A stretch of DNA of 64,000 nt from an uncultured Bacteroidota bacterium. Lineage in GTDB: Bacteria > Bacteroidota > Bacteroidia > AKYH767-A > OLB10. The notes beneath the pieces were generated by a model. That model saw nothing but the letters and a program-made list of their open reading frames with translations. It did not search any database and had not been told where the DNA came from. The position numbers were made by a program, and so were the translations under genes. The stretch covers positions 666,940 through 730,939 of the forward strand of contig CAWFDA010000046.1 of the NCBI GenBank assembly GCA_963814475.1, read 5' to 3'. Positions 1,190 to 40,305 of the stretch are shown here, one piece after another; within the stretch, counting starts at the first letter, position 1, and each line of letters begins with the position of its first letter.

Positions 1190-2290
1190 ATACACATCCC
1201 TGCAAGCTGCAGGCAGGCTCGTCCCAAGCCACAGGCCTGCGCGACAGACGAGTACGATAAAAAGGAGGTCCATTTAAAATATAAAGTTTACACATACTCG
1301 TCCCACGCCTTATGGCCAGCGCTTCAGACGAGTACGATGAAAGGGTACGATAAAAAGAAGATCCATCTAAAATATAAAGTTTACACATACTCGTCCCACA
1401 CCTTATGGCCAGCGCTTCAGACGAGTACGATGAAAAGAAGATCCATCTAAAATATAAAGTTAACACATACTCGTCCCACGCTTTATGGCCAGCGCTTCAG
1501 ACGAGTACGATGAAAGGGTACGATAAAAAGAAGATCCATCTAAAATATAAAGTTTACACATACTCGTCCCACGCCTTATGGCCAGCGCTTCAGACGAGTA
1601 CGATGAAAGGGTACGATAAAAAGAAGATCCATCTAAAATATAAAGTTTACACATACTCGTCCCACACCTTATGGCCAGCGCTTCAGACGAGTACGATGAA
1701 AAGAAGATCCATCTAAAATATAAAGTTTACACATACTCGTCCCACGCCTTATGGCCAGCGCTTCAGACGAGTACGATGAAAGGGTACGATAAAAAGAAGA
1801 TCCATCTAAAATATAAAGTTTACACATACTCGTCCCACACCTTATGGCCAGCGCTTCAGACGAGTACGATGAAAGGGTACGATAAAAAGAAGATCCATCT
1901 AAAATATAAAGTTTACACATACTCGTCCCACACCTTATGGCCAGCGCTTCAGACGAGTACGATGAAAAGAAGATCCATCTAAAATATAAAGTTTACACAT
2001 ACTCGTCCCACGCCTTATGGCCAGCGCTTCAGACGAGTACGATGAAAGGGTACGATGAAAAGAAGGTCCATTTAAAATATAAAGTTAACACATACTCGTC
2101 CCACGCCTTATGGCCAGCGCTTCAGACGAGTACGATGAAAGGGCTCGTCCCACGCCTTATGGCCAGCGCGTCAGACGAGTACGATAAAAAGGGTCCTTCT
2201 AAAATATAATGTTTAACACATACCTGCCTGCAGCAGGCAGGCTCGTCCCACGCCTTATGGCCGGCGCGTCAGACGAGTACGATAAAAGTG
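1190..2290. repeat. Tandem array of about 13 copies of a 77-94 bp unit. Each unit has a ~40 bp hairpin core (CTCGTCCCACGCCTTATGGCCAGCGCTTCAGACGAGTACGAT) plus an A-rich linker. The array is capped at both ends by a short palindrome (CCTGC..GCAGG).
   Basis: CTCGTCCCA recurs at ~1218, 1298, 1388, 1468, 1562, 1656, 1736, 1827, 1921, 2001, 2097, 2143 and 2241. Long and short unit variants differ by a 14 nt indel. The stem is ACTCGTC/GACGAGT. Confidence 0.9.
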
Positions 2291-2405
2291 TTTTCAATTT
2301 TAACTTCGACCCGATCTAATGCTTCGAACGCCGTCAATCCGAATGGAAAACTTTGTAATTTTCAGTTTTCAATTTTCAATTTTAACTATGACACGCTCTG
2401 ATATT
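2290..2405. repeat. MITE-like element of the TTTTCAGTTTTCAATT family, in inverted orientation (contains CTTCGACCCGAT, the reverse complement of ATCGGGTCGAAG).
   Basis: Shares GTTTTCAATTTT / TTTTCAGTTTTCAATTTTCAATT termini and the GGGTCGAAG core with the copies at 35930-36030 and 37260-37470. Confidence 0.6.
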
Positions 2406-2424: not shown

Positions 2425-3294
2425 TTATTTCGCCGTAATAAATCCAATAATTCTGTAAACCAGTTTTGCCAGGGTAAACTCCGATAAAATTTGTCCTTCA
2501 ACAGGAGCCACTTCAACCACATCAAAACCCACCACATTTTTATTTTCGACCACCATCTTAAGAAATTCCACCGTTTCATTCCAAAACAGACCGTTAGGTT
2601 CTGCAGTACCTACGCAGGGAATTACAGAAGGATCGAAACCATCGGCATCAATGGTGATGTACACATCATCCGTTAAATTTGCCAATGCCTCATTCATCCA
2701 ATTGGGATTTCGACGAATTTGATGTGCATAAAAGGTGTGAATATTAGCAGAAGATTTTATGAGATCGGCTTCTTCTTTACACTGAGCTCTGATACCTATT
2801 TGAACAATATTTAAACCCAGTTCATTTACCCGAGCCATTACGGAAGCATGAGAGTAAATGTTGTCGTGATAAGACGATCTTAAATCGGAATGTGCATCAA
2901 TTTGCAACACTGAAATATTACCATATTTTTTAACATGCGATTTTACAAAACCAAAAGTAACGGTATGTTCGGCACCTAGAGAAATCACAAACTTCCCATC
3001 ATCAATCAATTGATCGGTATGTTTTTCGATAAGATCAATGGCATCGGCATCAAATTTACCGTCAAAATTCATGGGTGACAATGTGGCTATTCCTCCTTTA
3101 CGGAAAGATTCCTGATCGAGTTCTTCATCATAAAATTCCACAAAATGAGAAGCTTCAATAATTGCTCCCGGACCTTTTGCAGAACCTTGTAAATAAGATG
3201 ATGTATGTTCGTAGGGAGCGGATTGAATTACGAAACGTGACGATTCATAGGAACAGAGATTTCATCCTCAATTGCTAAGGAAATTTTCTTCGGC
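2425..3294 (-). CDS. speB: Agmatinase / arginase-family ureohydrolase. The main ORF is 2425-3141 with a GTG start. The N-terminal ~50 codons are split by two apparent frameshifts.
   Basis: Carries ureohydrolase motifs (LGAEHTVT, QIDAHSDLR, TIDADGFDP). Upstream, in other frames, are MKALSAEENFL and ...YEHTSSYLQGSAKGPGAIIEASH. Confidence 0.65.
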
Positions 3295-3312: not shown

Positions 3313-4509
3313 TTACTTCTTCAAAACTTCTGCAACCAGATCTGCAGCTTCTTTAAGTTGAATTGCAGAAAACACCTTCAATCCTGATTCATCAATAATT
3401 TTTTTTGCTTCCACTGCATTGGTTCCTTGAAGACGAACAATGATAGGAACATGAATTTCACCAATGCTTTTGTAAGCATCAACAATACCCTGAGCAACAC
3501 GATCGCAACGAACAATTCCACCAAAAATATTCACCAAAATAGCTTTTACATTCGGGTCTTTAAGAATGATACGGAAGGCTTGTTCCACTCTTGCAGCATT
3601 GGCAGTACCACCAACATCTAGAAAGTTAGCAGGTTCACCACCTGCAAGTTTAATAATATCCATGGTAGCCATTGCAAGACCTGCACCATTTACCATACAA
3701 CCAACATTACCATCGAGTTTCACATAATTCAGATTATGTTCACCTGCTTCAACTTCAGTAGGATCTTCTTCGGAAATATCACGCATATCTGCGATAATCA
3801 GTATGACGATAAAGAGCATTTTCATCGAAATTCACTTTTGCATCAACAGCAATAATTTTATCGTCGGAAGTTTTTAGAACAGGATTAATTTCAAACATCG
3901 ATGCATCGATAGAATCGTAGGCTTTATAAAGAGTGGCAACAAATTTTGTCATTTCTTTAAATGCATTGCCACTTAGTCCTAGGTTAAAAGCAATTTTTCT
4001 GGCTTGGAAAGGCATGCAAACCAGAGAGTGGATCGATTTCTTCTTTAAAAATCAAATGAGGTGTTTTTTCAGCCACTTCTTCAATATCCATTCCACCTTC
4101 AGTAGAATACATGATTATATTTCTACCGGTTTGACGATTCAAAAGAACACTCATATAAAATTCAGAAGTTTCGGATAGGACCGGGATAATAAACATCTTG
4201 AGCAATCAGCACTTTATTCACTTTTTTACCTTGTGGGCCAGTTTGAGGAGTAACCAATTGCATACCTATGATATCAGTAGCCTTTGCTTTCACATCATCT
4301 AAACTTTTCGCCAATTTAACTCCACCACCTTTACCTCTACCACCGGCATGAATTTGAGCTTTTACCACCCACCAGGAAGTACCAGTTTGTTTCTGCAATT
4401 CTATAGCTGCTTCAACTGCTTGCTCCGGTGTTTCGGCAACAATTCCTTCTTGTATAGCCAACCCAAAACTTTTCAAAATTGATTTGCCCTGATATTCGTG
4501 AATATTCAT
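3313..4509 (-). pseudogene. sucC: Succinate--CoA ligase beta subunit (SucC), broken into 4 ORF fragments by frameshifts.
   Basis: Four consecutive minus-strand ORFs (4162-4509, 3984-4205, 3779-4015, 3313-3825) together reconstruct SucC: the N-terminal MNIHEYQGK... motif through the CoA-ligase domain ...GGIVRCD.... Confidence 0.8.
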
Positions 4510-8984: not shown

Positions 8985-9029
8985 TTTTTTAGGTTTTTAG
9001 TTTGTTCTTTTTAAGGATTGTTTGAAATA

Positions 9030-9470
9030 GTGGCAAGTGTTAAGTGACATGTGACAAGTGTTTAGTGACATGTGTTTAGTGACAAGTGTTTAGTGACAAG
9101 TGACAAGTGTTTAGTGACAAGTATTCAGTGACCAGTATTCAGTGACCAGTATTTCAGTGACCAGTGTTCAGTGACCAGTGTTTTAGTGACCAGTGTTTTG
9201 GTGACCAGTGTTTTAGTGACCAGTGTTACCAGTGTTTTAGTGACCAGTGTTTTGGTGACCAGTGTTTTAGTGACCAGTGTTTTGGTGACCAGTGATTAGT
9301 AACCAGTGTTCAGTGACCAGTATTTTAGTGACCCGGGTTAGTGAACAGGATTTTAGTGACCAGTGTTCAGTATTTAATATTTAATGACCGGAATATATGA
9401 CTAATGGCTAATCTAATTAATGACCCAATGACTAATGACCCAATGACTAATGTCTAATAACAAATTAACC
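9030..9470. repeat. Minisatellite with a ~16 bp unit (GTGACCAGTGTTTTAG) in about 20 copies, followed by AATGACCCAATGACTAATGAC heptad-type repeats.
   Basis: Direct tandem repetition is visible across 9040-9360. ATGACTA / ATGACCC units span 9400-9465. Confidence 0.85.
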
Positions 9471-24714: not shown

Positions 24715-25188
24715 ATGCAATTACAACACATCACCACCAAAATTCACGAAATCAGGGGCATGAAGGTCATGCTGGACTATGATCTGGCTGAAATGTATCA
24801 AGTCCCAACAAAAAGTCTCAATCTTAGTGTTAAACGGAATCTAAATCGATTTCCGGATGATTTTATGTTCCAACTTTCTCAAACTGAATGGCAAAGTTTG
24901 AGGTTTCAAAATGAAACCTCAAACAAACGGGGAGGTTCGAGGTATGTGCCATATGCATTTACAGAACAGGGTTTAGCCATGCTTAGTGGGATATTAAATT
25001 CTCCCATTGCTATCGAAGTAAATATCTCCATCATGCGGGCTTTTGTATTCATGCGACAATTTGCTCTTTCTCATCGTGAGTTAACGGAAAAACTCAAGGA
25101 AATGGAAACCAAATACGATCAGCATTTTCATACTATCTACGAAGCTATTGACTATCTTATAAAAAACGATGAGATGGACAAGAAATAA
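24715..25188 (+). CDS. ORF6N-domain protein, copy 2, intact tandem paralog.
   Basis: 157 aa with the full ORF6N N-domain and a conserved C-terminal helix region. Confidence 0.8.
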   Translation: MQLQHITTKIHEIRGMKVMLDYDLAEMYQVPTKSLNLSVKRNLNRFPDDFMFQLSQTEWQSLRFQNETSNKRGGSRYVPYAFTEQGLAMLSGILNSPIAIEVNISIMRAFVFMRQFALSHRELTEKLKEMETKYDQHFHTIYEAIDYLIKNDEMDKK

Positions 25189-28539: not shown

Positions 28540-28725
28540 TTAGAAAAATACATAAAAAAAGGGTCATTGGTCGTTGTCGGTGCGGAAGGGTCATTGAGTC
28601 ATTGGTCATTAGTCTTTGTCGGTGCGGAAGGGTCATTGAGTCATTGGTCGTTAAGTTTGGCGGAAGAGTCATTGGGTCGTTTTAATTGGCGGAAGGGTCA
28701 TTGAGTCATTGCTCTGATAAAAAAA
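28540..28725. repeat. Tandem ~57 bp repeats built from GGGTCATTGAGTCATTGGTC-type units (AGTCATT heptad family).
   Basis: GTCGGTGCGGAAGGGTCATTGAGTCATTGGTC occurs twice, followed by degenerate copies. The same heptad is seen at 9400-9465 in reverse complement and at 35820-35870. Confidence 0.8.
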
Positions 28726-29161: not shown

Positions 29162-30313
29162 TTACAATGTCCCTCGGCGGGCTTGTTCTGCTTCGATGGA
29201 TTCAAACAAAGCTTTAAAGTTTCCTTTCCCGAAGGACTTTGCTCCTTTGCGTTGAATAATTTCAAAGAATAATGTGGGACGATCTTCAACCGGTTTAGTA
29301 AATATTTGTAATAGGTATCCTTCTTCATCACGGTCTACCATAATTCCGAGTTTTTTCAACACTTCCATATCTTCTTCAATGATTCCTACTCTTTCAGCAA
29401 CGGTATCATAGTAGGAACCGGGAACGTAGAGAAATTCTACCCCTCGTTTGCGCATTTCAGCAATAGTTAAAACAATATTATTAGTTGCAACAGCTATATG
29501 TTGACAACCGGGTCCCTTATAAAAATCCAGATATTCTTCGATCTGAGATTTCTTTTTGCCATAGGCAGGTTCATTTATTGGAAATTTGATTCGTCCGTTA
29601 CCATTCGACATCACCTTACTCATAAGCGCAGTGTATTCAGTGGAAATATCTTTGTCATCAAAGGTAACCAAGTTGGCGAATCCCATTATTTCTTCATAGA
29701 ATTTTGCCCATTTGTTCATTCCTCCAAGTTCAACATTACCCACCATGTGATCAACATATTCGAGTCCGGCCGAAACGGGATTATATTCTGATTCCCACTT
29801 AACAAACCCGGGAAGAAAAACTCCATTGTAAGCTTAACGCTCTACAAAAATGTGAAGTGTTTCGCCATAGGTATGAATTCCCGACATCACCACTTTCCCA
29901 TTGTCATCTTCAATGGTTTTTGGTTCCATAAAAGGCTTTGCTCCTCTTTTAACTGTTTCATTAAAAGACTTAGTTGCATCATCCACCCACAAAGCAATAA
30001 CTTTAACACCATCGCCATGCAAACGAATGTGATGAGAAATTTCACTATCAGGATCCATTGGTGTAGTGAGAACAAGTCGAATTTTTCCTTGTTGCAGAAC
30101 ATATGAAGTACGATCACGACTACCGGTTTCTAATCCCCGATAAGCAAGTGATTGAAACCCAAAAGCTGTTTTGTAATAATGAGCTGCTTGCTTCGCATTG
30201 CCTACATACAATTCCACATAGTCGGTACCATTGATAGGCAAAAAATCTTGTGCTTTTTCAAACACTTTATCTCCGGAGTAGGAGTAATTTTGTACTGTTT
30301 TAAGATTGTCCAT
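29162..30313 (-). pseudogene. hppD: 4-hydroxyphenylpyruvate dioxygenase split into two ORFs by a frameshift near 29746-29834.
   Basis: The N-terminal half (29834-30313) and C-terminal half (29162-29746) are both typical VOC-fold HPPD sequences ending ...[16 protein letters not shown]. Confidence 0.75.
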
Positions 30314-34019: not shown

Positions 34020-34090
34020 TACATAATTGTTTAATCGTACTCGTCTGACGCGCCGGCCCGTGGCATGGGACGAGTATGCAGGAATTTTAC
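34020..34090. repeat. Dispersed copy, in inverted orientation, of the hairpin core from the 1190-2290 array.
   Basis: CGTACTCGTCTGACGCGCCGGCCCGTGGCATGGGACGAGTATG is approximately the reverse complement of CTCGTCCCACGCC..GGCC.GCGC.TCAGACGAGTACG. Confidence 0.75.
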
Positions 34091-34604
34091 TTTGAAGAAG
34101 GAACCAGAGGATCATCCATTTAAACAAGTAATTTCATTAAAATCAAAAAAAAATCTTTTATCTCGTCTGAAGTCTGCCTACCGTATCATAAAATTTAACA
34201 TTAAACTCCAATGAAAATTTCAGATTTCTAAAGTTATTTTGAATATTGTACAGCAGGCAGTTGATGCCCGATGGGCGTGGTTCCGATATTTATCGGACGA
34301 GTATGGGAGGATTTTTTTATTTTAGAAGTACCTTCTGCGAGAAATATGAAGGTTGGGTTGAAGCAACTAAATTAATCAGGCTTTTATTACTTCACCACAT
34401 ATTTATATTCCTGTCGAATAAAAACATCCAGTCAGTTAAATATCTATGACCTGACATAGAAAAATTAATTTTGAAAATGTTAAAAATAATTCCTGAAAGT
34501 GTATAAATAATAATTAATTTTGAATAAACATCTTTACATTTGAATAGTTTCATCACAACTATCAGAATTTATGAATTTGTATTCCTGCAAGGCATATTTT
34601 AAGC

Positions 34605-34800
34605 CAAAAAGCTACCCGGCAACCTTTGGGCATGGTTATTCCTCAGGCGTGATGTTTCTCACATCCTCGTCCCAAACCACAGGCCAGCGCGTCAGAGGAC
34701 GAGAGTATGGGGCATGGTTATTCCTCAGGCGTGATGTTTCTCACATCCTCGTCCCAAACCACAGGCCAGCGCGTCAGACGAGGACGAGAGTATGGGGAAA
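34605..34800. repeat. Two tandem ~62 bp copies of a variant hairpin element (CTCGTCCCAAACCACAGGCCAGCGCGTCAGACGAG).
   Basis: The direct repeat GGCATGGTTATTCCTCAGGCGTGATGTTTCTCACATCCTCGTCCCAAACCACAGGCCAGCGCGTCAGA(C)GAGGACGAGAGTATGGGG occurs twice. Confidence 0.8.
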
Positions 34801-34899: not shown

Positions 34900-35352
34900 G
34901 TGTTAAATAAATTTGTGATGAAAAAGCATGAAAATATTTTTAACGAAAGTGTAGTTGCTTACGGCACTCATTCCAACAATTCTATTTATTCAATTATGGA
35001 TACCATCCGCAGTGGTATTGTTTTTTCAAAATTCAATAAAGTACTTAACAGCTTTCCTTTCAGTTTATCCGATTGGTCTTGGTTTTTAGGAATGTCGGAA
35101 CGCACTATGCAACGCTACCGCAAAGAGAAAAAAACCTTTGATAAACTGCAGTCTGAAAAAATTTTAAACATTTACATACTTTACAACCGCGGTGTGGAGG
35201 TATTTGGAGGTGCTGAAAATTTCAACACATGGCTCGATACTCCCAACACAGCTCTTGGAGGTGAAGTGCCCAAAAAACTTTTGGATAACAATTTCGGTAT
35301 AGAGTTTCTCAACGATACGTTAACGCGTATTGAGCATGGCGTTTCTGCATGA
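34900..35352 (+). CDS. Xre/MbcA/ParS-type antitoxin (DUF2384 toxin-binding domain).
   Basis: C-terminal WLDTPNTALGGEVPKKLL...LTRIEHGVSA signature. It overlaps the RES gene by 4 nt (ATGA). Confidence 0.7.
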   Translation: MLNKFVMKKHENIFNESVVAYGTHSNNSIYSIMDTIRSGIVFSKFNKVLNSFPFSLSDWSWFLGMSERTMQRYRKEKKTFDKLQSEKILNIYILYNRGVEVFGGAENFNTWLDTPNTALGGEVPKKLLDNNFGIEFLNDTLTRIEHGVSA

Positions 35353-35828
35353 TTGTATTCAGGTTATGTCGTGAAGTTTATAGCAGTGACCTGAATGGAA
35401 AAGGTGCTGAAAAAAGTGGAGGACGGTGGAACAGCAAGGGCATTCCTATGCTTTACACTTCTGAAACAAGAGCCTTGTGTCTGGCTGAAATGATGGTAAA
35501 TCTTCCATTAAATTTGATTCCTAAGGATTTCTCAATGGTTTCAATTTTGGTGCCGGATGAACTGCAGACACACACAATAAAAATCGAACAATTACCATCC
35601 GATTGGAAAATGTTTCCTCACTCCTATTCTACCCAGAAATTAGGAGATGATTTTATTAATGAAGGAAAATTTATTGCTCTCAAAGTACCCTCAGTAGTTG
35701 TGCCCTTAGAGTATAATGTCATAATCAACCCAAGACATACAGATATGGGAAAGGTGAAAATTATTGAAGTGAAAAAATTTTCAATTGATGAGCGACTAAT
35801 TGCGAAGAGTGGGGAAAAAAGTCATTGA
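35349..35828 (+). CDS. RES-domain toxin (MbcT/ParT-like NAD+-targeting toxin).
   Basis: GGRWNSKGIPMLYTSETRALCLAEMMV matches the RES N-terminal motif. The 159 aa ORF is translationally coupled to the antitoxin. Confidence 0.75.
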   Translation: MIVFRLCREVYSSDLNGKGAEKSGGRWNSKGIPMLYTSETRALCLAEMMVNLPLNLIPKDFSMVSILVPDELQTHTIKIEQLPSDWKMFPHSYSTQKLGDDFINEGKFIALKVPSVVVPLEYNVIINPRHTDMGKVKIIEVKKFSIDERLIAKSGEKSH

Positions 35829-35872
35829 GTCATTAAGTCATTGAGTCATTAAGTCATTGAACTTTGGTTAGG
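35820..35872. repeat. AGTCATTGAGTCATTAAGTCATT heptad repeat.
   Basis: The tandem (A/G)GTCATT units are visible directly. Confidence 0.8.
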
Positions 35873-35929
35873 TTGAAAAGAATGAAGATTGATCGGGACG
35901 AGGAAAAAAATTGAAGATAGTAGATGTAC

Positions 35930-36135
35930 TTTTATACTTTCAATTTTCAGTTTTCAATTCGCGTTGACAGCGGTAGAAGCATTATATTCGGGTCGAAGGG
36001 AAAACTGAAATTTGAAAACTGAAATTTGAAAAGTTTTGGTAGGTTGGGACAAAGTTAAAACTGAAAAGCAGGCCCGAATCTATAGAGGCGGGCCTGTCCG
36101 AATCTATAGAGGCGGGCTTGCCCGATAAAGAAGAC
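35930..36135. repeat. MITE-like element with TTTTCAGTTTTCAATT / AATTGAAAACTGAAA inverted termini, followed by a 2x direct repeat GCCCGAATCTATAGAGGCGGGC.
   Basis: TTCAATTTTCAGTTTTCAATTCGCG...GGGTCGAAGGGAAAACTGAAATTTGAAAACTGAAA. Related copies lie at 2290-2405 and 37260-37500. Confidence 0.7.
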
Positions 36136-36168
36136 AAGTCAGAAGTAATGAAAAGATTTTTTTTCTAA

Positions 36169-37220
36169 TTACAGCCCCTCTTTTACAGCAGGAATCACTT
36201 TCGAACCAATTAAATTTATAGACTCCTTCAACTGATCATGAGATAATCCAGCATTTTCCATTTGAAAAGTAAGTCTAGAAATTCCACCCAGTGCTTTACT
36301 ATGACGAAGTATTTTTTCCGCCACTTCATCAGGATCACCCACTATTAAAGCACCTCTAGCACCGGTTTGTGAATCAAAATGAGGACGTGTTACAGGCGGC
36401 CATCCCCGTTCTTTGCCAATTCGTGTAAATGTTTCGGCATAACCCGGGATAATAATTTTCAACAGCTTCTTTAGAATTTGCAGCAACGTACCCAAGAGAA
36501 TGGAATCCCACTTTGAGTTTGTCTGGGGAGTGACCGGCTAATTGCCGGCTTGTCTGTATACATCAACCAGCGGACCGAAAACGATGTGTTTCTCCACCAA
36601 TAATTGCAATCATTAAAGGTAGTCCCAATATTCCAGCTCTGACAAATGATGCCGGTGTACCTCCTACTCCAAGCCAAATTGGCAATGGATCTTGCAGTGG
36701 TCGTGGATAAATATTGTTGTTTTACAAGGCAGCACGAAATTTACCTGACCAGGTAACGATTCATTATCTCTTATTTTCAACAAGGAGCTCTAATTTTTCA
36801 GCAAAATAGTTCATCGTAGTCTTTAGTATTCAAAGCCAAACAAGTGGAAATGCTTCAATAAATGAACCACTTCCAACCACCATTTCAGCACGACCCTGAG
36901 AAATAAGATCGAGTGTTGCAAAATTTTGAAAGACTCTTACCGGATCGGCCGCACTCAATACTGTAACCGCGCTAGTTAGTCTGATTTCGTCTTTGTTCTG
37001 GCTGCTGCAGCTGCAAGAATAATGGTTGGTGCCGAATCAAGAAATTCCTTTCGGTGATGTTCACCAATACCAAACACATCTAGGCCGACCTGATCAGCAC
37101 ATTCAATCCGTTCTAATAAGTGAGCTAGTGCATCACTTTGCTCCGGTTTTTAGCCGTCAGCTTGAATCGACGGTGACTTGCAGAAGCAAAACTATCTATT
37201 CCTATTTCCATTTTAATTAA
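36169..37220 (-). pseudogene. LLM-class flavin-dependent oxidoreductase (luciferase-like monooxygenase), heavily frameshifted.
   Basis: The C-terminal 108 aa ORF (...GALIVGDPDEVAEKILRHSKALGGISRLTFQ...) is typical LLM. Upstream fragments are scattered across frames to about 37220. Confidence 0.6.
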
Positions 37221-37259
37221 GCGAATGTGGGAGCAGTTTCCCGGTTAAAGGACGAAATA

Positions 37260-37500
37260 ACTTCAGTTTTAAAATTTTCAGCTTTATATTTGGGTCGAAG
37301 GGAAAACTGAAGAGTTAAAATTGAAAAGTTAAAAGTACGAATTATCTTCAATTTTATTTTTTCAGTTTTCAATTTTCAATTCGCGATGAGGGCGAATTGA
37401 AGCATAAATTCAGATCAAAGCGAAAATTGAAAAGCCTGCCCGACCCCCGATAGCCTTTGCGATGATTTGGGCGGGTTAAAATTGAAAAGTACAAATAAAC
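37260..37500. repeat. Two adjacent MITE-like elements of the same TTTTCAGTTTTCAATT family.
   Basis: TTGGGTCGAAGGGAAAACTGAAG... and TTTTTTCAGTTTTCAATTTTCAATTCGCGATGAGGGCG...AAAATTGAAAAG. Confidence 0.7.
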
Positions 37501-39309: not shown

Positions 39310-40305
39310 TCAGTCTTTTTCAAGTTTGTATTTGGAAACATTCATTCCAAAATTCAGGTTCTTACTTCTCACTAGTTCTTCCAATTCAGTAAGTGATTTT
39401 TTACCGAAATTTCTGAATTTAAGAAGGTCATTTTTAGAATAAGAAACCAGGTCTCCAAGAGTTTCAACATCAGCAGCTTTAAGGCAGTTAAGAGCTCGAA
39501 CAGAAAGATCCATATCAACCAATTTAGTTTTCAGCAACTGACGCATGTGAAGTGATGACTCATCGAACTCTTCAGTTGGAGTTTTAGGTTTGCTTTCGAG
39601 AGTGATTTTCTCATCAGAGAACAACATGAAGTGATGAATCAGAATTTCAGCTGCTTCTTTCAAGGGCATCTTTTGGATGAATAGATCCATCGGTAGCGAT
39701 TTCAAGAACCAGTTTTTCATAATCGGTCTTTCTGTTCAACCCTGTAGTTTTCTACGTTGTAACGAACGTTTCTGATTGGGGTGAAAATAGAATCGATAGC
39801 AATTGTTCCGATAGGATAGCTATTCGATTTATTCTCTTCAGCAGGAACATAACCACGACCTTTATCGATAGTGATATCAATTTGAATTTTAACACTCGTT
39901 TCCATGTTACAGATAACCAAATCAGGATTCAGAACCTGGAAAGCAGAGGTATGCTTAGCGATATCACCGGCAGTAAATTGATTTTTGCCGTTGATAGTTA
40001 CCTGAACTTTTTCAGAGTCGGTTGATTCAATTTGCTTTTTAAAGCGAACCTGCTTCAGGTTCAGAATGATTTCAGTAACGTCTTCAACAACACCCTTGAT
40101 AGTAGAAAACTCATGATCAACACCTGAAATTTTCACGGTGGTGATAGCATGACCTTCAAGAGATGAAAGGAGAATTCTCCTTAGCGCATTTCCGATAGTG
40201 ATTCCATAACCGGGTTCAAGTGGACGGAACTCAAATGTACCAAGATGTTCAGTTGGACTGAAGCATGATCACTTTATCCGGTCTTTGAAACGCTAATATT
40301 GCCAT
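39310..40305 (-). pseudogene. rpoA: DNA-directed RNA polymerase alpha subunit, split by at least 3 frameshifts.
   Basis: [17 protein letters not shown] at 40305 is followed by a frame break. ORFs 39717-40136 and 39310-39720 carry the rest (...[25 protein letters not shown]...). Confidence 0.8.

What the first reader, a model, noticed from the sequence alone, without database searches (positions are those of the whole stretch)
1190..2290. A 1.1 kb tandem array of hairpin-containing units that belongs to a dispersed repeat family
About 13 near-identical tandem units fill a 1.4 kb intergenic gap. Each unit is a ~40 bp imperfect palindrome (ACTCGTCCCACGCCTTATGGCCAGCGCTTCAGACGAGT) plus an A-rich linker (gaaagggtacgataaaaagaagatccatctaaaatataaagtttacacat). 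Long units (91-94 bp) and short units (77-80 bp) alternate irregularly, and the 14 nt difference between them rules out protein coding. The array is capped on both sides by the short palindrome CCTGCCTGCAGCAGGCAGG. Variant copies of the hairpin core occur at 34020-34090 in inverted orientation and twice in tandem at 34605-34800. This is not a CRISPR array, because the linkers between hairpins are identical rather than unique spacers. It looks like a REP/BIME-like element or a structured small-RNA family that has amplified locally.
Basis: seen in the sequence. Interest (0 to 1): 0.75.

Follow-up and report, generated by a model that had tools for sequence, protein, structure and literature searches.

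The report
Tandem array of REP transposase-target hairpins
The 1.1 kb array is 13 head-to-tail copies of a REP element, the small hairpin DNA repeat handled by a RAYT-type transposase, and a decayed copy of that transposase locus sits 32 kb away in the same window, so this is an ordinary though unusually arranged member of a known class of selfish bacterial DNA.

Summary
Window 1199-2290 holds 13 copies of a 35-36 nt imperfect palindrome, all in one orientation. Units are 93 or 80 nt and form a 266-nt higher-order repeat. The array fills the gap between an arginase-family (agmatinase-like) gene and a fatty-acid hydroxylase gene.

The hairpin is a REP (repetitive extragenic palindrome). In seven related Bacteroidota contigs, model-detected copies lie next to a 184-aa gene. 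In six of them (L088, L090, L091, L093, L094, L095) they flank it on both sides in inverted orientation. That gene passes NCBIfam's "REP-associated tyrosine transposase" model and fits the published Bacteroidetes subclass 2.6 (RAYT Group 5).

The other three copies in the window (34.0-34.8 kb) flank a dead copy of that gene, which has stop codons and an internal deletion of about 425 nt.

The "cap" palindrome is an optional REP module that also appears in other contigs.

Structure is better on the window's minus strand, where G·T wobbles pair. Rfam gave no match, and CRISPR is excluded.

The array most likely grew by unequal recombination or slippage, because its central units are homogenised and its edge units diverged.

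It differs from classical BIMEs, where REPs alternate in orientation. New member of a known kind; low to moderate interest.

The parts
1199..2290 (-). The whole array: 13 head-to-tail REP elements. Each has a foot (ATCGTA), a hairpin and a tail of about 45 nt. The strand given is the one on which the hairpin pairs best.
   Evidence: TRF finds period 93 (10 copies) and period 266 (3.4 copies, 98% identity).
1289..2138 (-). Homogenised core of the array: 10 near-identical REPs. Model matches are at 1289-1340, 1382-1433, 1462-1513, 1555-1606, 1648-1699, 1728-1779, 1821-1872, 1914-1965, 1994-2045 and 2087-2138.
   Evidence: Covariance model R1 scores 68-74 bits on the minus strand and 12-13 bits on the plus strand. 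The units are listed.
1210..1260 (-). Diverged REP copy at the left edge. The palindromic module is inserted after its stem.
   Evidence: R1 scores 64.9 bits. Sequence shown.
2139..2187 (-). REP copy joined directly to its neighbour through the 13-nt TACGATGAAAGGG segment (49-nt unit).
   Evidence: R1 scores 56.3 bits. TRF period 49. Unit listed.
2234..2285 (-). REP copy at the right edge, carrying the palindromic module.
   Evidence: R1 scores 69 bits. Sequence shown.
1199..1217 (.). 19-nt palindromic module (CCTGCAAGCTGCAGGCAGG), inserted between the REP stem (GACGAG) and its KATG foot.
   Evidence: The same module occupies the same position in REPs of L094 (twice) and L095.
2223..2241 (.). 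19-nt palindromic module (CCTGCCTGCAGCAGGCAGG), in the same position relative to its REP.
34032..34082 (+). REP copy on the downstream side of the RAYT pseudogene.
   Evidence: R1 scores 68.4 bits. blastn matches REPs of L094.
34162..34392 (+). Degenerate second downstream REP plus its tail. The two stem halves, ATCTCGTCTGAAG and GGACGAGTATGGG, are separated by about 110 nt of inserted sequence. Reading it as a REP with insertions is my own interpretation.
   Evidence: Sequence read. Window 34291-34392 aligns to L094 1636-1534 at 83% identity, E 3e-26.
34375..34588 (-). RAYT pseudogene remnant with its upstream region. Codons about 23-37 read N*LDVFIRQEYKYVV. It has in-frame stops, an internal deletion of about 425 nt and a 46-nt N-terminal deletion.
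   Evidence: tblastn E 0.002 against all held DNA, and 1.5e-6 within the region. blastn to L094: window 34439-34588 matches L094 862-711 (80%, E 7e-34), and 34397-34437 matches 950-910 (97.6%).
34658..34790 (-). Two tandem REP copies (34658-34711 and 34740-34790, 82-nt period) on the upstream side of the RAYT pseudogene.
   Evidence: R1 scores 57.2 and 74.5 bits. TRF period 82, two copies, 96% identity.

Best explanation
The array is a local, head-to-tail amplification of one REP element. This REP family is the DNA substrate of a Bacteroidota RAYT (TnpA_REP subclass 2.6, also called RAYT Group 5), which is a single-strand-DNA HUH/Y1 transposase.

**The element.** Each element is about 80 nt long. 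Reading the window's minus strand, it has these parts:
- a foot, ATCGT[A/C];
- a 10-11 bp stem that includes G·T wobbles;
- a conserved internal loop, TGA-GCGC-GGCC;
- a 3-bp inner stem with a variable loop;
- an optional 19-nt palindrome;
- a conserved tail of about 45 nt.

**Proposed history (inferred).**
1. One or two elements were deposited between the arginase-family gene and the hydroxylase gene. The agent was a RAYT acting on the hairpin in single-stranded DNA, and the REPtron at 34.0-34.8 kb is the likely source.
2. Host processes (unequal homologous recombination or replication slippage between adjacent direct copies) then expanded the pair into 93- and 80-nt units, and later into a 266-nt higher-order repeat.
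3. The local RAYT gene has since decayed, so recent growth need not involve it.

**Possible effect (inferred).** Because the stable-hairpin strand is the sense strand of both flanking genes, any read-through transcript would carry 13 hairpins. These could act as an RNA-decay or transcription barrier, as described for REPs in enterobacteria.

**Shown here:** identity as a REP, the RAYT association, strand asymmetry, the RAYT relic, and the array's anatomy. Everything else above is inference.

**Confidence.** The 0.8 applies to the identity (a tandemly amplified REP of a subclass 2.6 RAYT). For host recombination or slippage as the amplifying process, my confidence is about 0.6.
For: **RAYT association**
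- In L088, two copies of the element in inverted orientation flank a 184-aa ORF.
- That ORF scores 87 bits against NCBIfam NF047646, 'REP-associated tyrosine transposase' (cutoff 80, E 1e-24). It scores 29.2 bits against Pfam Y1_Tnp (cutoff 23).
- Its motifs are SHLHLV, VWQE and YIHNNP; it is 184 aa, and the distance from the HuH motif to the catalytic Tyr is about 84 aa. These fit subclass 2.6 of Quentin et al. 2018 (PMC6006769).
- A profile of 22 homologues hits IS200/IS605 transposase and TnpA_REP structures: 2EC2 at E 0.0022 and 4ER8 at E 0.0027.
- Model-detected REPs sit beside RAYT homologues of 64-88% identity in six more contigs. L094, L095, L091, L090 and L093 have them on both sides in inverted orientation; L065 has one copy beside the gene.

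**RAYT relic in the window**
-. The best blastn match to L094 has E 7e-34.

**The 'linker' and 'cap' belong to the REP family**
- The tail aligns across contigs at 66% mean column identity.
- The palindrome sits at the same position in REPs of L094 and L095.

**Strand asymmetry**
- The model scores 56-74 bits on one strand and 10-18 bits on the other.
- DNA folding gives -9.1, -9.1 and -12.8 kcal/mol on that strand, against -7.7, -6.2 and -9.2 on the other.
- Three pair positions are G·U/G·T wobbles, and one pair switches between C-G (10 sequences) and A-U (7 sequences).

**Amplification by recombination**
- The 266-nt higher-order period is 98% identical. The central units are identical, while both edge units share older variants (GGTCCATTT against GATCCATCT).
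- Direct tandem REPs recur in this family: two copies at window 34628-34797, and four copies with a roughly 60-nt period in L090.
- Tandem reiteration of single REPs together with flanking DNA is described for other REP families (PMC3733652).
Against: - Copy number looks low. A strict pattern scan of 185,579 species-representative genomes gave only 4 true hits in 3 Bacteroidota MAGs, and 3 metagenome contigs. Classical REPs exceed 100 copies per genome.
- No intact RAYT lies in the window, and the rest of the source genome could not be searched.
- The foot is CGT[C/A], not the canonical GT[AG]G.
- All copies share one orientation, unlike BIMEs and REPINs.
- No experiment shows that any subclass 2.6 RAYT cleaves these hairpins.
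- The copy number in the array rests on a single error-prone assembly.
- Covariation support is thin: only one pair changes on both sides.
Confidence: 0.8

Rival explanations
1. The RAYT itself makes the head-to-tail copies. For example, an excised single-stranded unit could reinsert next to an existing foot sequence, in the way IS608 always inserts 3' of its target tetranucleotide. On this view the tandem direct arrangement is the signature of this RAYT lineage's mechanism, not of host recombination.
For: - Direct tandem REPs recur independently in this family: 13 copies here, two copies at 34628-34797, four copies in L090, and two downstream copies in L094.
- Units abut precisely, tail to foot.
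- Published models allow complex REP arrays to arise from RAYT processing of circular intermediates (PMC3733652).
Against: - The 266-nt higher-order repeat and the homogenised centre with diverged edges are what unequal crossing-over produces.
- The only RAYT copy seen in the window is dead.
- L092 has REPs in mixed orientation, so direct orientation is not obligatory in this family.
Confidence: 0.15
2. The units are genes for a small structured RNA, or a processed multi-unit transcript, and the association with RAYT is secondary.
For: - The hairpin is better on one strand, with G·U pairs, and that strand is the sense strand of both neighbouring genes at the array.
- Internal-loop nucleotides are almost invariant.
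Against: - Rfam gave no match at gathering thresholds over the window, nor at E<=10 over 1100-2400.
- No sigma-70-type promoter or intrinsic terminator lies in the array. That scan does not cover Bacteroidota promoters.
- In L006, and at window 34658-34790, the favoured strand is opposite to the neighbouring genes.
- G·T wobbles also stabilise single-stranded DNA hairpins.
- The consistent inverted flanking of a transposase gene is explained by the REP model, not by an RNA gene.
Confidence: 0.05
3. The array's length or internal pattern is an assembly artefact, that is, an expansion or collapse of a shorter or longer repeat in a long-read assembly.
For: - The window shows frameshift-like breaks in sucC, rpoA and other genes, which suggests an error-prone assembly.
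- No second assembly spanning the array could be retrieved.
Against: - Units carry consistent substitutions (A/G in the core, 13-nt indel) arranged in a regular 266-nt pattern. Random error would not produce that.
- Short-read contigs from two other samples that encode the identical hydroxylase end about 274 nt upstream of the gene. That is window position ~1304, at the first canonical repeat unit, as expected when a repeat breaks an assembly. This evidence is weak, because contigs of that collection are short in general.
Confidence: 0.1
4. It is a CRISPR-like array of 36-nt repeats.
For: The repeat is 35-36 nt, partly palindromic and regularly spaced.
Against: - The 'spacers' are identical, and they are homologous to sequence that follows single copies elsewhere.
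- Single copies flank transposase genes.
- The 30 window ORFs scanned against Pfam returned no CRISPR-associated family.
Confidence: 0.01

Closest known systems
REP sequences and REPtrons of RAYT/TnpA_REP subclass 2.6 (Bertels RAYT Group 5), Bacteroidetes (Quentin et al. 2018, PMC6006769; Bertels et al. 2017, PMC5581495)
   Same: - The hairpins flank a gene of about 180 aa in inverted orientation, with further copies elsewhere in the genome.
- The gene carries the xH[LIV]H, WQ and YIH[QN]NP motifs.
- There is no GT[AG]G foot, and the secondary structure is 'atypical'.
   Different: [quoted passage not shown]
- The roughly 80-nt modular architecture, the CGT[C/A] foot, the optional 19-nt palindrome and a 13-copy direct array are spelled out here. 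They were not in the passages I read.
BIMEs of E. coli and relatives (REP clusters; Nunvar et al. 2010, PMC2817692; Ton-Hoang et al. 2012, PMC3333891)
   Same: - Regularly spaced REPs with conserved linkers, found as consecutive tandem copies in intergenic DNA.
- They are associated with a RAYT.
   Different: - BIMEs alternate REP and inverted REP; here all 13 copies point the same way.
- The E. coli REP has a GTAG foot, and its RAYT belongs to a different subclass (2.2).
CGTC-tagged REP superfamily (Di Nocera et al. 2013, PMC3733652)
   Same: - Short palindromic repeats with a CGTC-like tetranucleotide at one end.
- That superfamily was reported in Bacteroidetes among five phyla.
   Different: - The published CGTC families have 8-9 bp stems that start with A/T pairs, 4-5 nt loops, a CCA tail and an unpaired tag. 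They were reported to lack any dedicated transposase and to form head-to-tail dimers only negligibly.
- Here the foot can pair with KATG, the stem is CTCGTC.., the loop is large and structured, a RAYT is associated, and head-to-tail is the rule.
REPINs of Pseudomonas (Bertels & Rainey 2011, PMC3116915)
   Same: Non-autonomous elements built from REPs and tied to a single-copy RAYT.
   Different: REPINs are inverted REP doublets. No inverted doublet is present in this array.

Membership tests
REP (repetitive extragenic palindrome) cognate to a RAYT | Short imperfect palindrome able to form a stem-loop | tested here: met
   The core is 35-36 nt. The stem is 10-11 bp on the minus strand. Folding z-scores are -2.3 to -3.6 as DNA and -2.8 as RNA.
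REP (repetitive extragenic palindrome) cognate to a RAYT | Copies flank a RAYT gene in inverted orientation (REPtron) | tested here: met
   L088, L094, L095, L091, L090 and L093 have copies on both sides in inverted orientation. The window's own copies at 34.0-34.8 kb flank a RAYT pseudogene.
REP (repetitive extragenic palindrome) cognate to a RAYT | Extragenic location | tested here: met
   All 16 window copies lie in two intergenic regions. The copies in L006 and L017 are also intergenic.
REP (repetitive extragenic palindrome) cognate to a RAYT | High copy number in the genome (typically >100) | not testable with these tools
   The source genome could not be retrieved. Strict-pattern scans suggest only 1-2 copies per related representative genome.
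REP (repetitive extragenic palindrome) cognate to a RAYT | Conserved GT[AG]G tetranucleotide at the foot (canonical REPs) | tested here: not met
   The foot is (A)TCGT[C/A]. This agrees with the published note that subclass 2.6 REPs lack GT[AG]G.
RAYT / TnpA_REP subclass 2.6 (protein in related contigs) | Passes the curated REP-associated tyrosine transposase model; HuH, WQ and YIH[QN]NP motifs; about 179 aa | tested here: met
   NF047646 scores 87 bits (cutoff 80) and PF01797 scores 29.2 bits (cutoff 23). Motifs were read from the sequence. H61, H63, W124, Y147, H149, N151 and P152 are invariant in 22 homologues.
RAYT / TnpA_REP subclass 2.6 (protein in related contigs) | An intact copy in the genome that carries the array | tested here: inconclusive
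   Only a pseudogene lies in the 64 kb window. The rest of the genome was not available.
BIME | REPs regularly spaced in alternating orientation | tested here: not met
   All 13 copies are on the same strand.
CGTC-tagged REP superfamily | Terminal CGTC-like tag, unpaired; 8-9 bp stem starting with A/T pairs; 4-5 nt loop; CCA tail | tested here: not met
   A tag is present (CGTC or CGTA), but it can pair with KATG. The stem starts with C-G, the loop region is 21-23 nt with an inner stem, and there is no CCA tail (definition).
CRISPR array | Unique spacers between repeats, with cas genes nearby | tested here: not met
   The inter-repeat segments are identical. None of the 30 window ORFs scanned against Pfam matched a CRISPR-associated family.
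Any curated RNA family (Rfam 15) | Match to a covariance model | tested here: not met
   There were 0 matches at gathering thresholds over the window, and 0 at E<=10 over 1100-2400.

The most novel reading that the evidence does not exclude
Bacteroidota subclass 2.6 RAYTs may use a CGT[C/A]-footed, roughly 80-nt modular REP and multiply it as head-to-tail tandem units, through a transposase-driven route that differs from the inverted-doublet (REPIN) and alternating (BIME) modes. If so, this would give a CGTC-like REP class its first dedicated transposase, which the 2013 survey could not find. It would also point to a different insertion geometry for a domesticated HUH transposase.
Probability: 0.15. 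Interest if true: 0.5.

Novelty: new member of a known kind. Interest (0 to 1): 0.27.

Why it matters
The finding turns an odd-looking array into an explained one: a REP element of the poorly described Bacteroidetes RAYT lineage, amplified in place.

- **Practical value.** It supplies a concrete consensus and a working covariance model for these 'atypical' REPs, which earlier surveys could only find by eye. It also flags a repeat that breaks short-read assemblies of these activated-sludge-type Bacteroidota.
- **Biological value.** It is a natural case of orphaned REPs that may be expanding without their transposase. Such a case is useful for separating host-driven from transposase-driven REP dynamics.
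- **What it does not do.** It does not reveal a new kind of system.

Tried and rejected
- **Rfam.** Scans at gathering thresholds over the window and at E<=10 over 1100-2400 found nothing.
- **Viral contigs.** The scan gave one hit, a chance match in a 64% GC contig.
- **Genome scan.** 81 of the 85 hits were chance matches in high-GC genomes, because the first pattern was too loose.
- **Metagenome scan.** Only 3 contigs were found, but one of them (L088) gave the key RAYT association.
- **Source genome and parallel assemblies.** Exact-protein look-ups failed to retrieve them. The long contig was not readable, the Logan contigs had no DNA, and the M48 peptidase was not on record.
- **Promoter and terminator scan.** None was found in the array. 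That scan does not cover Bacteroidota promoters.
- **Kink-turn, hammerhead and attC readings.** I considered these by eye and dropped them, because the conserved motifs do not fit.
- **GCGC/GCGU inner helix.** ViennaRNA proposed it. I dropped it because it is not conserved in the GGTT-type copies, and kept the 3-bp GCC/GGY stem.
- **tblastn extension of the RAYT relic to residues 11-22.** I judged it spurious once blastn showed a 46-nt deletion there.
- **Protein-coding reading.** ORFs of 90-103 aa run through the 93-nt units on the + strand. They are broken at every 80-nt unit and are explained by the repeat.

Full report
**1. The observation**

Window 1199-2290 contains 13 copies of a 35-36 nt imperfect palindrome (CTCGTCCCAnnCC..GGCCnGCGCnnCAGACGAG), all in the same orientation. 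Shuffled sequence gives none.

- Six units are 93 nt and three are 80 nt. The long units carry an extra TACGATGAAAGGG, so the difference is 13 nt.
- The four edge units are 79, 49, 98 and 49 nt.
- Tandem Repeats Finder also reports a 266-nt period (93+93+80) at 98% identity.
- The central units are identical to each other. The units at both edges share older variants such as GGTCCATTT where the centre has GATCCATCT.
- The array fills the 1394-bp gap between two minus-strand genes: an arginase-family (agmatinase-like) gene at 2425-3141 and a fatty-acid hydroxylase gene at 365-1030.
- The three further copies at 34040-34074, 34666-34703 and 34748-34782 are real.
- A covariance model run with filters off found no other copy in the 64 kb.

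**2. Which strand carries the structure**

- The window's minus strand forms a 10-11 bp stem (CGTACTCGTCT/GGACGAGTATG) with G·U or G·T wobbles, plus a 3-bp inner stem (GCC/GGY) with a variable 3-5 nt loop.
- On the plus strand those wobbles become A·C mismatches.
- The model scores 56-74 bits on that strand and 10-18 bits on the other.
- Folding as DNA gives -9.1, -9.1 and -12.8 kcal/mol, against -7.7, -6.2 and -9.2 on the other strand. Folding as RNA gives the same ranking.
- Across 24 distinct copies, 93.6% of cells pair. One pair switches between C-G (10 sequences) and A-U (7 sequences). Three pair positions carry wobbles.
- Covariation is therefore modest. The strand asymmetry is clear.

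**3. What the element is**

A pattern scan of one genome per species gave true hits only in three low-GC Bacteroidota MAGs (L006 and L017 from JADKJB01, L052, L065). The remaining hits were chance matches in high-GC genomes. The metagenome scan gave three contigs.

In one of them, L088, two copies in inverted orientation flank a 184-aa ORF.

- The ORF passes NCBIfam NF047646, 'REP-associated tyrosine transposase', at 87 bits (cutoff 80). It passes Pfam Y1_Tnp at 29.2 bits (cutoff 23).
- Its motifs (SHLHLV, VWQE, YIHNNP), its length, and its roughly 84-aa HuH-to-Tyr spacing fit TnpA_REP subclass 2.6 (RAYT Group 5). [quoted passage not shown]
- A profile of 22 homologues reaches the IS200/IS605 transposase and TnpA_REP structures: 2EC2 at E 0.0022 and 4ER8 at E 0.0027.
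- The protein family is large, with 1346 hits at E<=1e-10. Several sources name members RayT or REP-associated tyrosine transposase.

I fetched six more homologue loci of 64-88% identity. In every one, the model or the inverted-repeat finder locates related hairpins on both sides of the gene in inverted orientation.

- L094: 561-611(+); 1482-1533(-) and 1618-1669(-).
- L095: 101-152(+) and 320-369(+); 1135-1185(-).
- L091: 3902-3954(+); 4561-4611(-).
- L093: 1585-1615(+); 2250-2280(-).
- L090: 846-876(+); four direct copies at 1506-1727(-).
- L092: at least 11 copies in mixed orientation.
- L065 and L087 carry a 77%-identical gene with the hairpin just downstream.

This is the defining REPtron arrangement.

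**4. The window holds a dead REPtron**

- Between the inverted copies at 34.0 and 34.7 kb, the minus strand reads N*LDVFIRQEYKYVV, against RAYT NWLDVFIRQEYKYII.
- blastn aligns 34439-34588 to the L094 upstream region and first codons (80%, E 7e-34).
- It aligns 34397-34437 to codons 23-36 (97.6%).
- It aligns 34291-34397 to the L094 3' end and downstream REP tail (83%).
- The gene has therefore lost about 425 nt internally and 46 nt near the N-terminus, and it carries stop codons.
- No intact RAYT lies elsewhere in the window.

**5. Re-reading the 'linker' and the 'caps'**

- The roughly 45 nt that follow each hairpin on the minus strand (TATGTGTAAACTTTATATTTTAGATGGATC..) align with the sequence that follows single REPs in L094, L095, L065 and the window's REPtron, at 66% mean column identity. 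The 'linker' is thus the tail of the element, and the array is a string of whole elements joined tail to foot.
- The palindrome CCTGCCTGCAGCAGGCAGG sits exactly between GACGAG and KATG in two REPs of L094 and one REP of L095, as it does at window 1199-1217 and 2223-2241. It is an optional module of the family, not a cap of the array.

**6. How the array most likely arose**

- *Shown.* It consists of REP elements of a RAYT lineage. It has a higher-order period. Its centre is homogenised and its edges are diverged. The local RAYT is dead.
- *Inferred.* A RAYT placed one or two elements here by acting on the hairpin in single-stranded DNA. Unequal recombination or slippage between direct neighbours then did the rest.
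- *Precedent.* Direct tandem copies recur in the family (two copies at 34628-34797; four in L090). Tandem reiteration of single REPs with flanking DNA has been reported for other families (PMC3733652).
- *Alternative.* A transposase-driven tandem mechanism cannot be excluded, and I rate it at about 0.15.
- *Possible function.* The stable-hairpin strand is the sense strand of both flanking genes. An RNA-level barrier role is therefore conceivable but untested. No sigma-70-type promoter or intrinsic terminator is present.

**7. Comparison with known families**

- *REP/REPtron.* It meets the criteria except the canonical GTAG foot and, as far as can be told, high copy number.
- *BIME.* It fails the criterion of alternating orientation (Nunvar et al. 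abstract).
- *CGTC-tagged REPs.* It resembles the class of Di Nocera et al. only in its foot. Stem, loop and tail all differ. That class was reported to lack a transposase and to avoid head-to-tail pairs.
- *Others.* CRISPR and Rfam families are excluded.

**8. Caveats**

- The assembly has frameshift-like breaks in sucC, rpoA and other genes, so the exact unit count needs confirmation.
- Short-read contigs from two other samples that encode the identical hydroxylase stop at about window 1304, at the first canonical unit. That fits a repeat breaking the assembly, but contigs of that collection are short in general.
- The source genome could not be fetched, so the genome-wide copy number and the presence of an intact RAYT remain unknown.

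**Verdict**

This is a real and now explained feature: a head-to-tail array of Bacteroidota REP elements next to housekeeping genes, with its decayed transposase locus in the same window. It is a new member of a known kind, of low to moderate interest.

Noticed in passing
window 3313-4509 (-), 39310-40136 (-), 29162-30313 (-): Several housekeeping genes are split into adjacent or overlapping ORFs. sucC is in four pieces. rpoA is in two (N-terminal domain and CTD). A hydroxyphenylpyruvate-dioxygenase-like gene is in two glyoxalase-fold pieces. This looks like indel errors of a long-read assembly rather than real pseudogenes.
   Followed up: partly
window 9028-9452: About 420 bp of short tandem repeats lie between an M16 peptidase gene and a short-chain dehydrogenase (FabG-like) gene. 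AGTGACCAGTGTTTT occurs roughly 22 times, followed by TAATGACCCAATGAC. A short-read contig from another sample ends close to this block.
   Followed up: partly
window 28562-28711, 35819-35860, 9419-9448: A second dispersed micro-repeat, (A/G)GTCATTGAGTCATT, occurs in short tandem runs at three intergenic sites. There are 9 matches where 0.02 are expected by chance.
   Followed up: partly
window 2291-2399, 35925-36035, 37240-37440; L017 7340-7400: A third intergenic repeat family is built on TTTTCAGTTTTCAATTTTCAATT and its complement (GGGTCGAAGGGAAAACTGAAA..). One copy directly follows the REP array, and a similar stretch follows the REP in the related MAG. Its nature is unknown.
   Followed up: partly
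window 34900-35828 (+): An Xre-family antitoxin and RES-domain toxin pair sits immediately beside the decayed REPtron.
   Followed up: partly
window 36072-36125: A 24-nt unit, GCCCGAATCTATAGAGGCGGGCCT, is repeated 2.2 times. Each copy is a GC-clamped hairpin. Not examined further.
   Followed up: no
window 36160-37200: By eye, this stretch reads like a gene on the minus strand. No ORF of 120 aa or more is listed between 35828 and 37515. Not annotated.
   Followed up: no
L092 3440-5300: In this metagenome contig the RAYT, with at least 11 short REPs in mixed orientation, sits right after the S12-S7-EF-G-S10 ribosomal gene block. It shows how densely these REPs can cluster around their transposase.
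   Followed up: partly
L090 1506-1727: Four direct tandem copies of a short REP (ATCGTCCTCGCCTGTGGCGAGGATG, roughly 60-nt period) lie downstream of a RAYT. This is an independent example of head-to-tail REP reiteration in this lineage.
   Followed up: partly
L017 7440-7790: Next to the solo REP of the related MAG is what reads as a RadC/JAB-like gene (..SHNHPS..) with an in-frame stop. I recognised it by eye only.
   Followed up: no
window 24715-25188 (+): An ORF6N (KilA-N-like) domain protein lies among genes of unknown function. It may be a remnant of a mobile element.
   Followed up: no
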